From NCBI RefSeq assembly GCF_009931435.1, contig NZ_CP043414.1: a stretch of DNA of 64,000 bases. One strand, given 5' to 3'. Of the stretch, positions 29,100 to 32,000 are shown piece after piece; position 1 is the first letter of the stretch; each line of letters begins with the position of its first letter. Origin of the DNA: Escherichia coli (GTDB lineage Bacteria; Pseudomonadota; Gammaproteobacteria; Enterobacterales; Enterobacteriaceae). Position numbers: made by a program.

Positions 29100-32000
29100 T
29101 AATGGGCGATATTCTGAAACGGCGATTGTCGTGAGAACAGAATGGTTGCATCAGAATACAGATATAAAAAAACCGACATGACAGTCGGTTTTTTTATTTT
29201 TTCCGCCCAAGACTTGGTGGTTCCGGGCAGAAATGAAACAGTCCTCATCTAGCAAGTGAATTATAAGTCAGGATGCCTACATATTCAAACAGCTATGTTG
29301 GCGATACAATCCCGACGCTAGTAGTGATACTGCCTCAAGGGATTACCGCAGTGCGGAAAAGTACTTTTAAGTCCTGGTCAGGATACAGGTGGTGCTGATT
29401 CTGGTGCTCTAATTTGGAGAGAGGCAGTCCTCATCTAGCACATGAAGAAAATCATAGTTACAGGCAACGTAAGGGTAAGCTGTGATTGTCTTTCTCCCTT
29501 AAGGGAGCAACGGATGAAAACTTTTCTCGATAAAGTTCTCATCGTTCTTAAGGCGCTAATCGCGCTGCTGGAACTGATCCGTCAGTTTATTGAATAACTG
29601 AGGAAACGTAGCTAAGGCCGAAGGTTTACCACCTTCGGCCTTTAAAAAAACCGACATGACAGTTGGTTTCAGATTTATTGCCAAAATGCACACTGTTCAT
29701 GCCGGATGCGGCGTGAACGCCTTATCCGGCCTACGGTTAAGTGCAGTTTTGTAGGCCTGATAAGACGCGCCAGCGTCGCATCAGGCAATCTAACGCCTGT
29801 CATCACCCCGCAAACTGCCTGAACAGCGCCTTACCCTTAACCAGTCGCGCGCCCAGCCAGCCGCCGAAAAGTGACAGCAGCAGCGCACCGCTACACGGCA
29901 ACACAATCCACAATCGCCAGTCTGGCTCCCACGGGAAATCAAACACTTTCGCCTGCAGTACCGCCAGCGCCGTTTCCGCACCAATTGCGGCCACCAGGCC
30001 GGATACAAACCCGAGCATGGCGAACTCACACCATAATGTCGTGCGCAGCAGCTTTTTCCCCGCACCGAGTGTGCGCCACACCACCAGCTCCTGATGACGC
30101 TGACGCATTCCCACCTGCACCTGTGCCAGCAACAGCAACATACCGCAGGCGGTGACCAGCACCACCATCACTTCCAGCGCCCGACTTACCTGCTCCAGCA
30201 CCTGACCGACCTGTTTTAAAATCGCGCCAATGTCTAACAGGCTAATGGTCGGGAACTGGCGGTTGAGTTGCGTCAACATGCCGTTGCCATTCTCCCAGCG
30301 GAAACTGGTAAGCCAGCTCTGCGGTTGCCCGTCTAATGCCCCTTCCGGGAAAATAAAATAGAAATTAGGCCGCAGACTTTCCCAGTCCACTTTGCGCAGG
30401 CTGGTCACTTTAGCGCGGAACTCCTGGGTATCGCCCATAAAAGTCACGGTATCGCCGAGGGCAACGTTTAAGCGTTTCGCCAGCCCCTCTTCCATCGATA
30501 CTTCATCGGCTTTTGGCGGCCAGTTACCGGCGACAATTGGATTATGATCGGGCCGCGTATTTTGCCAGGTGAGATTGAGTTCGCGATTGAGCGCCTCATC
30601 TTCATTGCCTTCTGTCGGCTTATCGTTAATCGCCGTCAACCGCGCCCGCACTACCGGATAAAACGATTCCGGGACTATTTGATGTTCCGCGAGGAACGCT
30701 TTTAGCGGCGTAACCTGTTCTGTGGCGATGTTGATTAAAAAGTAGTTCGGGCTTTCTGGCGGTAGCTGCTGTTGCCAGCGGTCGAGCAGATCGCCACGCA
30801 ACACCAGCAACAGTGCCAGCAGCATAAAGGAGAGCGAAAATGCCGAAAGCTGGCTTAACGTTGACCACGGCTGACGTAACAGGCGGCTAACCGCCAGGCG
30901 CAGAGGTAGCGATTTCAGCGTCATGCGGCGAAGTACATTCAGCAGCATCCAGCCCAGGACACCGCACAGCAAAGCCAGTACTACCGCGCCCGCCAGCACC
31001 GCCCAGAGCAGCATACTGCCGCCCATCAGTCCGGCGAGCAGTAGCACAACCACCACACTGACAATCGGCAGATAAAACTTCAGCGGCCAGACGTTTGCAA
31101 CCACATCATTACGTAACACGCGTAAAGGCTGCGTTGCCAACAACAGGCGGTATGGTCGCAGCCCCACCAGCAGCGAGATGACCGTCATGGTGCCAAGCGC
31201 CCACAGCCATGGCCAGAGGCTGGCAGGCGGTAGTGCGGCAGGCAGAACGGGCTTGAGCAGCACCATCAACACGTTTTCGAACAACAGGCCTATCGCCCCG
31301 CCGGTAACGGCTGAAAGCGCCAGCACCATCAGCCACTGACCGACGATTAGCTTACGCAGTTGCGCTCGCCCAGCCCCCAGCGTTTTGAGGATCGCCACCA
31401 GATCGTAGCGACTACGACAGTAATGATTCATCGCCACCGCCACCGCCGCCACCGCCAGCAGCAAGGTCAGAAGCGCCGAAAGCAGCAGAAACTGTTGCGA
31501 GCGTTCCATCGATCGCCCCAGCGCGCCTTCGTCCTGTTCCAGACCGTACCAGCGTTGTTCGGGTTTAAGCTGAGGTAACAACCATTTCTCATAGCCGTCG
31601 AGCTGGTTCTCGTTGCCGCCGAATTTATAACGCCAGGTGACCCGACTCCCCGGCTGCACGGCTCCGGTTTTATCGACATCCGCCAGATTCATCATCAGAC
31701 GCGGGGCCATCTGGAAGGGGTTAAAACCGGAATCCGGTTCCTGAATCACTTCTCCGGCAATCCGCAAGGTGGTATCGCCCACGTCAATGGTGTCGCCCGT
31801 TTTCAGGTTAAGCAGTGCCATCAAGCGTGGGGCCAGCAATACGCTGCCCGCCTGCGGTTTCAGGCCTGGAGGATTGGTTTGCAGATCGCCATACATCGGG
31901 TAGATATCATCCACCGCTTTGACGTTCGCCAGCTGCGGTGTGTCGCCCGCAAAAGTCATCGTGGCGAAAGTCAGCTGCTTGCCGACTTTCAGGCCGCGCT

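What the first reader, a model, noticed from the sequence alone, without database searches (positions are those of the whole stretch)
29160..29680. Candidate type I toxin-antitoxin module between mnmH and ybbP: DinQ/TisB-like 27-aa peptide with a divergent antisense sRNA
Four independent signals co-occur within about 500 bp. (a) A 27-codon ORF (29514-29597, MKTFLDKVLIVLKALIALLELIRQFIE) has a strong Shine-Dalgarno and is too short for the ORF track; its ALIALLELIR core matches the DinQ toxin as I remember it. (b) The Shine-Dalgarno sits inside a perfect palindrome (CTCCCTT|AAGGGAG), as expected for a translationally inert primary toxin transcript. (c) On the opposite strand there is a near-consensus sigma70 promoter (TTGAAT-17-TATAAT) that would start a ~90-nt RNA ending at a textbook bidirectional terminator. 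(d) The first ~15 nt of that RNA are perfectly complementary to CAGTCCTCATCTAGC in the toxin leader. The geometry mirrors tisB/istR-1 and dinQ/agrB, but I found no LexA box. I cannot tell whether this locus is already catalogued.
Basis: partly seen in the sequence, partly recalled or inferred. Interest (0 to 1): 0.82.

Follow-up and report, generated by a model that had tools for sequence, protein, structure and literature searches.

The report
Second DinQ/AgrB toxin-antitoxin copy
The mnmH–ybbP gap holds a real small membrane-toxin gene and its RNA antitoxin, but this is a second copy of the known DinQ/AgrB system, already labelled 'DinQ' in over a thousand E. coli genomes, and unlike the original it has no DNA-damage switch.

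Summary
All four observations hold at the stated coordinates and exceed chance.

**Family membership**
- The 27-aa ORF (29514-29597) passes NCBI's curated DinQ model (40.9 bits, cut-off 30).
- The minus-strand RNA (29253→29164) passes Rfam's AgrB model (53.6 bits, gathering score 40).
- Both RNAs align along their whole length with K-12 dinQ and agrA/agrB.
- RefSeq already names the exact peptide 'damage-inducible type I toxin DinQ'.
- Kristiansen et al. 2016 defined the dinQ-like (dql) family. DqlB/agrB was validated on pOXA-48 in 2025.

**What is new here**
- The locus is a paralogue. About 24% of 5,426 complete E. coli genomes carry it, and 5,422 carry the canonical arsR–gor dinQ.
- It has no LexA box. 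None of 11 dql-type modules has one, so 'damage-inducible' is probably a misnomer.
- The K-12 leader switch (5' lock, SD hairpin, alternative 2:3 helix) is reproduced and supported by covariation across 14 modules.
- sRNA seed and target co-vary from module to module.
- About 190 genomes carry a 108-nt deletion that kills the toxin but keeps the sRNA.
- The roughly 0.5-kb block is 99-100% conserved between flanks that are 93-97% identical.

Toxicity, transcripts and processing remain untested for this copy.

The parts
29164..29253 (-). AgrB-family antitoxin sRNA gene, about 86-90 nt. The 5' end is at 29253/29252. The first 15 nt form the perfect seed.
   Evidence: Rfam RF02891 AgrB scores 53.6 bits (gathering score 40) over model positions 1-84 of 84. 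It aligns with K-12 agrA/agrB. Fold -33.9 kcal/mol, z = -5.4.
29260..29288 (-). Sigma-70 promoter of the sRNA: -35 TTGAAT at 29288..29283, 17-nt spacer, -10 TATAAT at 29265..29260.
   Evidence: 10 of 12 matches, the only promoter-like hit in 29050-29850. The position matches the agrA/agrB promoters in alignment A2.
29164..29197 (.). Bidirectional intrinsic terminator of the sRNA (AAAAAAACCGAC-ATGACA-GTCGGTTTTTTT). It probably also ends mnmH transcription.
   Evidence: One search finds it on both strands. The same CCGAC...GTCGG terminator occurs in K-12 agrA/agrB and in other modules. It occurs once in the window.
29282..29317 (+). Predicted toxin promoter: weak -35 at 29282-29287 overlapping the sRNA -35 on the other strand, -10 TACAAT at 29305-29310, predicted +1 at G29317.
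   Evidence: Placed by alignment to the mapped K-12 dinQ -10 TATGAT and +1 (+1 derived from the numbering in PMC5066626). Not flagged by the consensus scan. Inferred, not shown.
29317..29336 (+). Leader element 1, the 5' 'lock'. GCUAG..UGAU.ACUGCCUC pairs with the sRNA target region in the full-length transcript.
   Evidence: MFE and centroid of the full-length mRNA. The 5'-end/target-end helices are 100% paired in 14 modules with 5 compensatory pairs. The window itself contributes a U-A to C-G change.
29417..29440 (+). sRNA target site, also leader element 2. The match is perfect at 29425-29439 and extends by G·U pairs to 29417.
   Evidence: It sits at the same relative position as the AgrB site G88-A119 of K-12 dinQ.
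29484..29507 (+). Leader elements 3 and 4. GAUUGUCUUUCUCC (29484-29497) pairs either with element 2 or, through CUCCC (29494-29498), with the SD GGGAG (29503-29507) in the SD hairpin.
   Evidence: The SD hairpin is 91% paired across 14 modules. The 2:3 helix is 83.5% paired, against 43-65% when the partners are slid.
29514..29597 (+). Toxin ORF, 27 aa, DinQ family (MKTFLDKVLIVLKALIALLELIRQFIE).
   Evidence: NCBIfam NF041472 scores 40.9 bits (cut-off 30). The exact sequence is in RefSeq as DinQ. Pfam PF28061 DinQ is precomputed on homologues. The start-codon column (ATG/GTG) is conserved in 14 modules.
29614..29643 (+). Toxin mRNA terminator hairpin (AAGGCCGAAGG-TTTACCA-CCTTCGGCCTT) with a short U tract.
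   Evidence: Read from the sequence. It forms the 3' hairpin in the fold. It aligns with the K-12 dinQ terminator, which also has a short U tract. Not flagged by the scan.
29643..29679 (.). Decayed second copy of the AgrB-type terminator, in direct repeat with 29165-29200. It bounds a 478-bp unit.
   Evidence: The exact 21-mer occurs at 29165 and 29643. The local alignment spans about 35 nt. Its meaning is unexplained.
29442..29513 (+). In-frame upstream extension that PGAP includes in a 51-aa 'dinQ' CDS. Probably not translated.
   Evidence: There is no SD before ATG 29442. Extensions in homologues differ in length and sequence, and indels here are not multiples of three. K-12 DinQ is a 27-aa peptide (PMC5066626).

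Best explanation
This is a complete, probably functional paralogue of the dinQ/agrB type I toxin-antitoxin system, of the 'dinQ-like' (dql) kind. It sits between mnmH and ybbP.

Inferred mechanism, by homology with K-12 dinQ:
1. A weak sigma-70 promoter (-10 TACAAT, +1 about 29317) makes a roughly 330-nt mRNA with a 197-nt leader.
2. In this primary transcript the 5' end pairs with the region 29417-29440. That leaves element 3 free to close a hairpin over the Shine-Dalgarno, so the mRNA is not translated.
3. Removal of the first 25-45 nt frees 29417-29430 to pair with 29484-29497. This partly opens the SD and allows synthesis of a 27-aa hydrophobic inner-membrane peptide that is toxic when overproduced.
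4. A constitutive, divergently transcribed sRNA of about 90 nt (29253→29164) pairs through its 5' end with 29417-29440. This displaces the 2:3 helix and recloses the SD hairpin. As for AgrB, it probably also triggers RNase III cleavage.

Unlike canonical dinQ, the toxin promoter has no LexA operator, so expression should not depend on the SOS response.

Shown here: homology, sequence anatomy, computed structures, covariation and distribution. Inferred: transcription starts, processing, toxicity and RNase III involvement.
For: **Family models.** NCBIfam toxin_DinQ scores 40.9 against a cut-off of 30. Rfam AgrB scores 53.6 against a gathering score of 40, full length.

**Alignment with K-12.** Colinear alignment with K-12 dinQ mRNA gives 76% column identity, including the leader blocks AAGTCCTGGTCAG and GGTGGTGC, the SD, the ORF core and the terminator. 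The sRNA aligns with agrA/agrB at 79%.

**RNA stability.** z = -5.4 for the sRNA and -5.5 for the mRNA.

**Pairing.** The seed-target duplex is -41.9 kcal/mol, against -21.3 ± 2.5 for shuffles.

**Structural switch.** The computed probability that the SD is unpaired is 0.01 in the full-length mRNA. It is about 0.15-0.17 after 5' truncation and 0.01 when the sRNA site is blocked. The same computation on the experimentally characterised K-12 RNA gives 0.05, 0.21 and 0.02.

**Covariation across 14 modules from chromosomes, ICEs and plasmids.**
- 5' lock plus SD hairpin: 96.7% of cells paired, 8 pairs with compensatory changes, 0 of 500 shuffles as good, slid controls 33-44%.
- 2:3 helix: 83.5% paired.
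- Of 11 modules compared, each has its own matched sRNA seed and target. The cognate pairs are the strongest or joint strongest in the 11×11 energy matrix.
- Every toxin homologue examined has an upstream divergent AgrB hit.

**Conservation.** The locus is intact in 1,135 complete E. coli genomes, always single-copy and chromosomal.

**Published precedent.** DinQ/AgrB mechanism: PMC5066626. DqlB/agrB toxicity and rescue: PMC12365149.
Against: - There is no expression, toxicity or processing data for this copy.
- The toxin promoter has a poor -35 and was not detected by the consensus scan.
- The computed opening of the SD after truncation is modest. At some truncation points the MFE still shows the SD closed or paired to GCUCU at 29406-29410.
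- The perfect seed (15-16 nt, about 24 bp with wobbles) is the shortest of the modules compared, which have 19-35 contiguous pairs.
- About 190 of 1,325 carriers have lost the toxin 5' part, and about 76% of E. coli lack the module. It is therefore dispensable.
- The 2:3 helix has only weak covariation support (15 of 500 shuffles).
Confidence: 0.85

Rival explanations
1. The locus is a decaying relic of a mobile-element addiction module. Its sequence is recognisable, but the toxin is no longer expressed at a meaningful level and the module has no current function.
For: - Close peptide homologues sit on ICEs and F-like or IncX/IncK plasmids.
- The toxin -35 is weak.
- About 14% of carriers have a toxin-killing 108-nt deletion, and E2348/69 has an IS between the promoters.
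- The module is absent from about 76% of E. coli and is replaced by the rhsD island in K-12.
Against: - In 1,135 genomes every functional element is intact: both -10 boxes, seed and target, SD hairpin, start codon, ORF and both terminators.
- The block is 99-100% identical across lineages whose flanking genes differ by 3-7%.
- A neutral relic would have accumulated disabling changes at many different sites. Instead one recurrent or clonal deletion is seen.
Confidence: 0.1
2. The main function lies in the sRNA. It acts in trans on the canonical dinQ mRNA or on other targets, and the adjacent toxin is secondary. This would resemble orphan antitoxins such as OrzP in MG1655.
For: - The sRNA is retained at 100% identity in the toxin-deleted alleles, and 1,319 genomes keep it nearly full-length against 1,135 with an intact toxin region.
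- All carriers also hold canonical dinQ.
- G·U wobbles allow a -35.5 kcal/mol duplex with the K-12 dinQ target.
- An orphan orz sRNA precedent is described in PMC11264685.
Against: - The cross-duplex (-35.5) is weaker than AgrA with dinQ (-42.7), and AgrA is reported not to bind or regulate dinQ (PMC8594479).
- The cognate pairing with the neighbouring leader is stronger (-46.6).
- Seed and target co-vary within modules.
Confidence: 0.1
3. The gene product is the 51-aa protein annotated by PGAP (29442-29597), not the 27-aa peptide.
For: RefSeq annotates the 51-aa CDS in many genomes. The frame is open from ATG 29442.
Against: - There is no SD upstream of 29442, whereas a strong SD sits 6 nt before ATG 29514.
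- N-terminal extensions in homologues vary in length and sequence, and the leader has indels that are not multiples of three.
- The conserved start column carries ATG or GTG in all 14 modules.
- PGAP itself annotates the 27-aa form in E2348/69.
- K-12 DinQ is a 27-aa peptide (PMC5066626).
Confidence: 0.05

Closest known systems
dinQ/agrA/agrB of E. coli K-12, arsR–gor intergenic region (Weel-Sneve 2013, PMC3567139; Kristiansen 2016, PMC5066626)
   Same: - Homologous toxin peptide with an identical ALIALLELIR core, 27 aa.
- Homologous AgrB-type sRNA with the same terminator.
- Divergent, non-overlapping layout.
- sRNA 5' end pairing at about +100 of a leader roughly 195 nt long.
- 5' lock, SD hairpin and alternative 2:3 helix.
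- The same computed SD behaviour.
   Different: - A different chromosomal site (mnmH–ybbP), and accessory: 24% of genomes against 99.9%.
- One sRNA gene instead of two.
- No LexA operator.
- A different seed and target sequence, with predicted weak cross-pairing.
- A peptide 3 aa longer at the N terminus and 3 aa shorter at the C terminus.
- ATG rather than GTG as start codon.
- The promoters lie closer together, with overlapping -35 boxes.
dql (dinQ-like) genes dqlA/dqlB (Kristiansen 2016), and DqlB/agrB of pOXA-48 (PMC12365149)
   Same: - The same family by 5'-UTR and peptide signature, with no LexA box.
- Sigma-70 promoter, SD hairpin and terminator.
- Some strains carry a dql gene together with dinQ.
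- DqlB/agrB was shown to be toxic, to be rescued by agrB and to act as an addiction module.
   Different: - The window peptide lacks the 7-aa insertion of DqlB and fails the DqlB model (24.5 bits, below the cut-off of 35).
- It belongs to a third peptide subtype, (M/V)K(T/V)F(L/I)(D/E)K...KALIALLELIRQFI(D/E), which is presumably DqlA. I could not see the paper's figure to confirm this.
- It is chromosomal, not on a plasmid.
tisB/istR-1 and zorO/orzO (E. coli type I systems with divergent trans-pairing sRNAs)
   Same: Divergent sRNA, a long inert 5' UTR activated by 5' processing, and a small hydrophobic toxin.
   Different: No sequence or RNA-family relationship was detected. OrzO-P scores 25 bits against a gathering score of 60, and on the wrong strand; there is no IstR hit. 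tisB uses a ribosome standby site rather than a 2:3/3:4 switch (PMC5066626), and it is LexA-regulated.

Membership tests
DinQ/AgrB type I toxin-antitoxin family (including dql) | The toxin peptide matches the curated DinQ profile | tested here: met
   NF041472 scores 40.9 bits, cut-off 30. BLASTP against K-12 DinQ gives 15/19 identities, E 3e-8. PF28061 DinQ is precomputed for homologues. The Pfam copy behind profile_search gave no hit and appears to lack this family.
DinQ/AgrB type I toxin-antitoxin family (including dql) | An AgrB-type antisense sRNA is present | tested here: met
   Rfam RF02891 scores 53.6 bits, gathering score 40, full model. It aligns with agrA/agrB.
DinQ/AgrB type I toxin-antitoxin family (including dql) | The sRNA is encoded 5' of the toxin mRNA and divergently, without overlap, within 300-500 nt (T1TAdb criteria, PMC8594479) | tested here: met
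   The sRNA 5' end is at 29253 and the predicted mRNA +1 at 29317, so the two starts are 64 nt apart.
DinQ/AgrB type I toxin-antitoxin family (including dql) | At least 15 nt of complementarity between the sRNA 5' region and the toxin 5' UTR upstream of the RBS | tested here: met
   15-16 nt are perfect and about 24 bp pair with G·U wobbles. Energy -41.9 against -21.3 ± 2.5 for shuffles. The site is at the homologous leader position.
DinQ/AgrB type I toxin-antitoxin family (including dql) | The leader has four elements forming mutually exclusive 1:2, 2:3 and 3:4 (SD hairpin) pairings | tested here: met
   Folding results, with the K-12 benchmark. Covariation on 14 modules. Support for 2:3 is weaker than for the lock and the SD hairpin.
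DinQ/AgrB type I toxin-antitoxin family (including dql) | The peptide is toxic or membrane-active when overproduced, and the sRNA neutralises it | not testable with these tools
   Shown only for K-12 DinQ and for pOXA-48 DqlB (PMC5066626; PMC12365149).
DinQ/AgrB type I toxin-antitoxin family (including dql) | The primary transcript is inert and is activated by 5' processing (+44 in K-12) | not testable with these tools
   Only the thermodynamic proxy is available.
Canonical dinQ (the SOS gene, orthologue of b4613) | A LexA operator at the promoter, giving damage inducibility | tested here: not met
   The best PWM score is 7.9-8.3, against at least 16.5 for real boxes. K-12, L007 and L010 dinQ boxes score 23.9 even when left out of training. 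The training boxes were recalled from memory, so the PWM is approximate.
Canonical dinQ (the SOS gene, orthologue of b4613) | [quoted passage not shown] | tested here: not met
   The window locus lies between mnmH and ybbP and has one sRNA. Canonical dinQ is a separate locus present in 5,422 of 5,426 genomes.
DqlB subfamily | Matches NCBIfam NF041473 (31-aa peptide with a 7-aa insertion) | tested here: not met
   24.5 bits, below the cut-off of 35. The insertion is absent in alignment A5.
Zor/Orz and TisB/IstR-1 | The RNA family model matches | tested here: not met
   OrzO-P scores 25.1 bits, below the gathering score of 60, on the plus strand over the terminator only. There is no IstR hit at E ≤ 10.

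The most novel reading that the evidence does not exclude
The 0.5-kb unit 29164-29680 is bounded by direct repeats of the AgrB terminator. It may be an SOS-independent DinQ-family cassette that spread recently among Escherichia lineages by recombination. It is 99-100% identical between flanks that are 93-97% identical, and it is more uniform than the canonical dinQ locus. Its sRNA may persist after toxin loss because it has a role of its own, such as cross-talk with canonical dinQ or immunity against incoming dql-bearing plasmids or ICEs.
Probability: 0.2. Interest if true: 0.45.

Novelty: already known. Interest (0 to 1): 0.22.

Why it matters
As a discovery it matters little. The family, its mechanism and this peptide are already in the literature and in RefSeq.

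It has modest value as an annotation correction:
- The RefSeq product name 'damage-inducible' is transferred from a LexA-regulated paralogue to a copy with no LexA box.
- The commonly annotated 51-aa CDS is probably too long.
- The antitoxin sRNA is not annotated in the RefSeq records seen, although it passes the Rfam threshold.

For type I toxin-antitoxin biology, the locus is a natural second DinQ system with a distinct seed. It coexists with canonical dinQ in about a quarter of E. coli, and natural toxin-null alleles exist. That makes it convenient material for studying specificity, cross-talk and turnover of chromosomal type I modules.

Tried and rejected
- **Pfam scan of the 51-aa form:** no hit. 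The library copy apparently predates PF28061, which appears in the precomputed annotations. This is not evidence against membership.
- **The search for homologous proteins with the 27-aa peptide:** The 51-aa form was used instead.
- **Genome-contig scan with a 20-base leader pattern:** too strict. It returned 10 loci, of which 4 were chance hits in unrelated GC-rich genomes: L006, L009, L014 and part of the rest. Diversity was obtained instead from protein hits and the plasmid collection.
- **LexA box:** rejected by PWM. The best site, 29275-29294, keeps only one ACAG half-site.
- **Remnant of the module in K-12:** none. The whole intergenic region is replaced by the rhsD island.
- **Tandem second copy in any E. 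coli genome:** none; there is one place per genome.
- **Cross-regulation of canonical dinQ by this sRNA:** judged unlikely, because the predicted duplex is weaker than that of the non-functional AgrA.
- **A second sRNA site inside the ORF (29534-29543):** only -16.6 kcal/mol, and not pursued.
- **Whether this exact locus is among the 14 dql genes of Kristiansen 2016:** could not be verified. The figures and supplements are not held.
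Full report
**Setting.** The window region is Escherichia DNA. It carries allS (27013-27939, +), mnmH (28008-29102, +) and ybbP (29803-32217, -), and the finding lies in the 700-bp gap between the convergent mnmH and ybbP.

**Check of the observation.**
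- The 27-codon ORF 29514-29597 encodes MKTFLDKVLIVLKALIALLELIRQFIE. AAGGGAG ends 6 nt before the ATG.
- The SD is the right half of the perfect palindrome CTCCCTT|AAGGGAG at 29494-29507.
- On the minus strand, TTGAAT-17-TATAAT (29288..29260) is the only promoter-like site in 29050-29850. The 14-pair A/T-flanked hairpin at 29164-29197 is called as a terminator on both strands.
- An RNA from 29253 to about 29164 is 90 nt and folds far better than shuffles, at -33.9 kcal/mol, z = -5.4.
- Its first 15 nt are the exact complement of 29425-29439.
- With G·U pairs and one mismatch the duplex runs to 29417. Its energy is -41.9 kcal/mol, against -21.3 ± 2.5 for shuffled seeds.

**What it is.** Curated family models identify both genes.
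- The peptide scores 40.9 bits on NCBIfam NF041472 'damage-inducible type I toxin DinQ' (cut-off 30). It fails the sister model DqlB at 24.5 bits, below the cut-off of 35.
- The minus-strand RNA scores 53.6 bits on Rfam AgrB (gathering score 40) over the whole model. It is the only AgrB hit in the 64 kb.
- I fetched the K-12 arsR–gor locus and aligned it. The toxin transcript is colinear with dinQ from the -10 box to the terminator at 76% column identity. Shared features are the leader blocks AAGTCCTGGTCAG and GGTGGTGC, the SD, the ORF core and the terminator.
- The sRNA is colinear with agrA and agrB, including the CCGAC/GTCGG terminator.
- By this alignment the toxin -10 is TACAAT (29305-29310) and +1 is about G29317, giving a 197-nt leader. 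The 14 modules I compared have leaders of 190-207 nt.

**Already catalogued.**
- PGAP annotates a 'dinQ' CDS at this very site.
- The exact 27-aa sequence is a RefSeq 'MULTISPECIES: damage-inducible type I toxin DinQ' seen on at least 1,000 contigs.
- Kristiansen et al. 2016 defined dinQ-like (dql) genes, divided into dqlA and dqlB. They found them in chromosomes and plasmids of Enterobacteriaceae, noted that some strains carry dql together with dinQ, and showed that the 5' UTR elements are conserved (PMC5066626).
- T1TAdb holds the family (PMC8594479).
- DqlB/agrB of pOXA-48 was shown experimentally to be a toxic, agrB-rescued addiction module (PMC12365149).
- I found no paper on the mnmH–ybbP copy specifically. 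I could not see the 2016 figures.

**Mechanism, tested as far as sequence allows.** In the full-length mRNA the MFE and centroid pair the 5' end (29317-29336) with the sRNA-target region. The SD is closed in a CUCCC/GGGAG hairpin. The fold gives -121.5 kcal/mol, z = -5.5. The table gives the computed probability that the SD is unpaired, with the same script run on K-12 dinQ, whose +1 and +44 forms were characterised by SHAPE and in vitro translation.

| RNA form | Window locus | K-12 dinQ |
|---|---|---|
| Full-length transcript | 0.01 | 0.05 |
| 5'-truncated (window: start at 29340 or beyond; K-12: +44) | about 0.15-0.17 | 0.21 |
| sRNA site blocked | 0.01 | 0.02 |

In the truncated window RNA, GGAGAGAGGCAGUC (29417-29430) pairs with GAUUGUCUUUCUCC (29484-29497). 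The window locus therefore behaves like the reference.

Covariation across 14 modules supports the same structures. The set comprises the window, three canonical dinQ alleles, Pluralibacter, two Yersiniaceae chromosomes, Salmonella and Enterobacter ICEs, a Klebsiella aerogenes F-like plasmid, and IncK2/Z, IncN-X1, IncX3 and IncX5 plasmids.
- The 5' lock and SD hairpin are 96.7% paired, with 8 compensatory pairs and 0 of 500 shuffles as good. Slid controls give 33-44%.
- The window itself supplies one compensatory change: GCUAG/CUAGC instead of GUUAG/CUAAC.
- The 2:3 helix is 83.5% paired, against 43-65% for slid controls. Its covariation support is weaker.

**sRNA-target co-evolution.**
- Every toxin homologue I retrieved has a divergent AgrB hit upstream.
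- Each of the 11 modules compared has its own seed sequence, matched by its own leader at the same position.
- In that 11×11 matrix the cognate pairs are strongest or tied strongest.
- Even canonical dinQ alleles within E. coli differ in this segment, with matching sRNA changes.
- This is the strongest evidence short of experiment that the pairing is functional.

**How it differs from canonical dinQ.**
- It is a paralogue at a different site. Canonical dinQ occurs in 5,422 of 5,426 complete E. coli genomes. This module's sRNA occurs in 1,326 and its toxin region in 1,325, always once and always on the chromosome. Carriers therefore have two DinQ systems.
- It has no LexA box. The best PWM score is about 8, against at least 16.5 for real boxes and about 24 for dinQ boxes left out of training. 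The same holds for all 11 dql-type modules. The PWM was built from boxes recalled from memory, so scores are approximate, but the gap is large. The RefSeq name 'damage-inducible' is thus probably wrong for this copy.
- It has a single sRNA gene. The two -35 hexamers overlap back to back at 29282-29288.
- The peptide belongs to a third subtype, with KALIALLELIRQFI(D/E) and no 7-aa DqlB insertion. This subtype is also found on ICEs and plasmids.
- The 51-aa CDS often annotated is unlikely to be the product, for reasons given under the rival explanations.

**Natural variants.**
- About 190 carriers, for example strain EC1, have a 108-nt deletion (29426-29533) between 9/10 direct repeats. It removes the target site, the SD, the start codon and the first codons, and keeps the sRNA intact.
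- E2348/69 has an IS481-family element inserted at 29289/29290, between the promoters.
- K-12 has the rhsD island in place of the whole intergenic region, with no remnant of the module.

**Cross-talk.** The sRNA could form a -35.5 kcal/mol wobble-rich duplex with the canonical dinQ target. That is weaker than AgrA with dinQ (-42.7), and AgrA is reported to be inactive on dinQ. AgrB pairs poorly with this leader, at -27.3 (PMC8594479). I therefore expect the two systems to be largely orthogonal. This is an inference.

**Unexplained points.**
- A direct repeat of about 35 nt of the AgrB terminator (29165-29200 and 29643-29679) bounds a 478-bp unit.
- The block 29164-29680 is 99-100% identical to copies in E. 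coli and in Escherichia sp. E1V33, while allS, mnmH and ybbP are 93-97% identical. Identity drops just outside the block.
- The module is also more uniform across E. coli than canonical dinQ.
- These points could mean a remnant of a tandem array, recent spread by recombination, or strong constraint. I could not discriminate between them.

**Verdict.** The locus is a member of a known and annotated family, so novelty is low. The residual value lies in correcting the annotation (the name, the ORF length and the missing sRNA) and in using the locus as a natural second, SOS-independent DinQ system.

Noticed in passing
window 29165-29200 and 29643-29679: The AgrB-type terminator is present twice as a direct repeat of about 35 nt (21 nt exact). 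The second copy is decayed and directly follows the toxin terminator. Together they bound a 478-bp unit. This may be a remnant of a tandem array or a recombination boundary.
   Followed up: partly
window 29164-29680 compared with 27013-29163 and 29681-32217: The module is 99-100% identical to copies in E. coli strains and in Escherichia sp. E1V33 (L013), whose flanking allS, mnmH and ybbP are only 93-97% identical. No complete E. coli genome matches the window's mnmH 3' end above 96.5%. This suggests recent recombinational spread or unusually strong constraint.
   Followed up: partly
window 29426-29533 (allele in L003, strain EC1): About 190 complete E. coli genomes carry a 108-nt deletion between the near-identical decamers AGTCCTCATC (29426) and AGTTCTCATC (29534). 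It removes the sRNA target, the SD and the start of the ORF, while the sRNA gene stays intact.
   Followed up: partly
window 29289/29290 (L004, E2348/69): An IS481-family transposase element is inserted exactly between the back-to-back sRNA and toxin promoters in EPEC E2348/69. Both genes remain intact, but the toxin -10 is separated from its upstream DNA.
   Followed up: no
window 29442-29597: PGAP annotates a 51-aa 'dinQ' CDS in many genomes and a 27-aa one in others. The name 'damage-inducible' is carried over although no LexA box is present. The AgrB-like sRNA is not annotated in the RefSeq records seen.
   Followed up: yes
window 29695-29807: REP/BIME-type palindromic elements lie between the module and the end of ybbP, giving sub-threshold naRNA4 hits. 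This segment differs between strains.
   Followed up: no
L015 (K-12 518000-535000): In K-12 the whole mnmH–ybbP intergenic region is replaced by the roughly 7-kb rhsD-ybbC-ylbH-ybbD-ylbI-ylbG island. The site therefore has alternative occupants.
   Followed up: partly
L007, L010, L011, L012 (canonical dinQ loci): The AgrB-binding segment of canonical dinQ is hypervariable among Escherichia strains, for example GAGAGTTCTTATC, GATAGTCGTCATC and GAATGCCATTATC. One of the adjacent agr genes carries matching changes.
   Followed up: partly
L018-L020 (Salmonella and Enterobacter ICEs), L021 (K. aerogenes F-like plasmid), L016/L017 (Yersiniaceae chromosome): The closest peptide relatives of the window toxin sit next to conjugation genes on ICEs and plasmids (TraG-D, DtrJ-like, TraY/TraM). 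In Yersiniaceae they lie between an ABC permease operon and lacZ. Each has its own AgrB.
   Followed up: partly
window 16077-16143 (-), 7734-7913 (-), 35241-35318 (-): Other Rfam hits above threshold in the window are STnc480 and three naRNA4 (REP-derived) elements.
   Followed up: no
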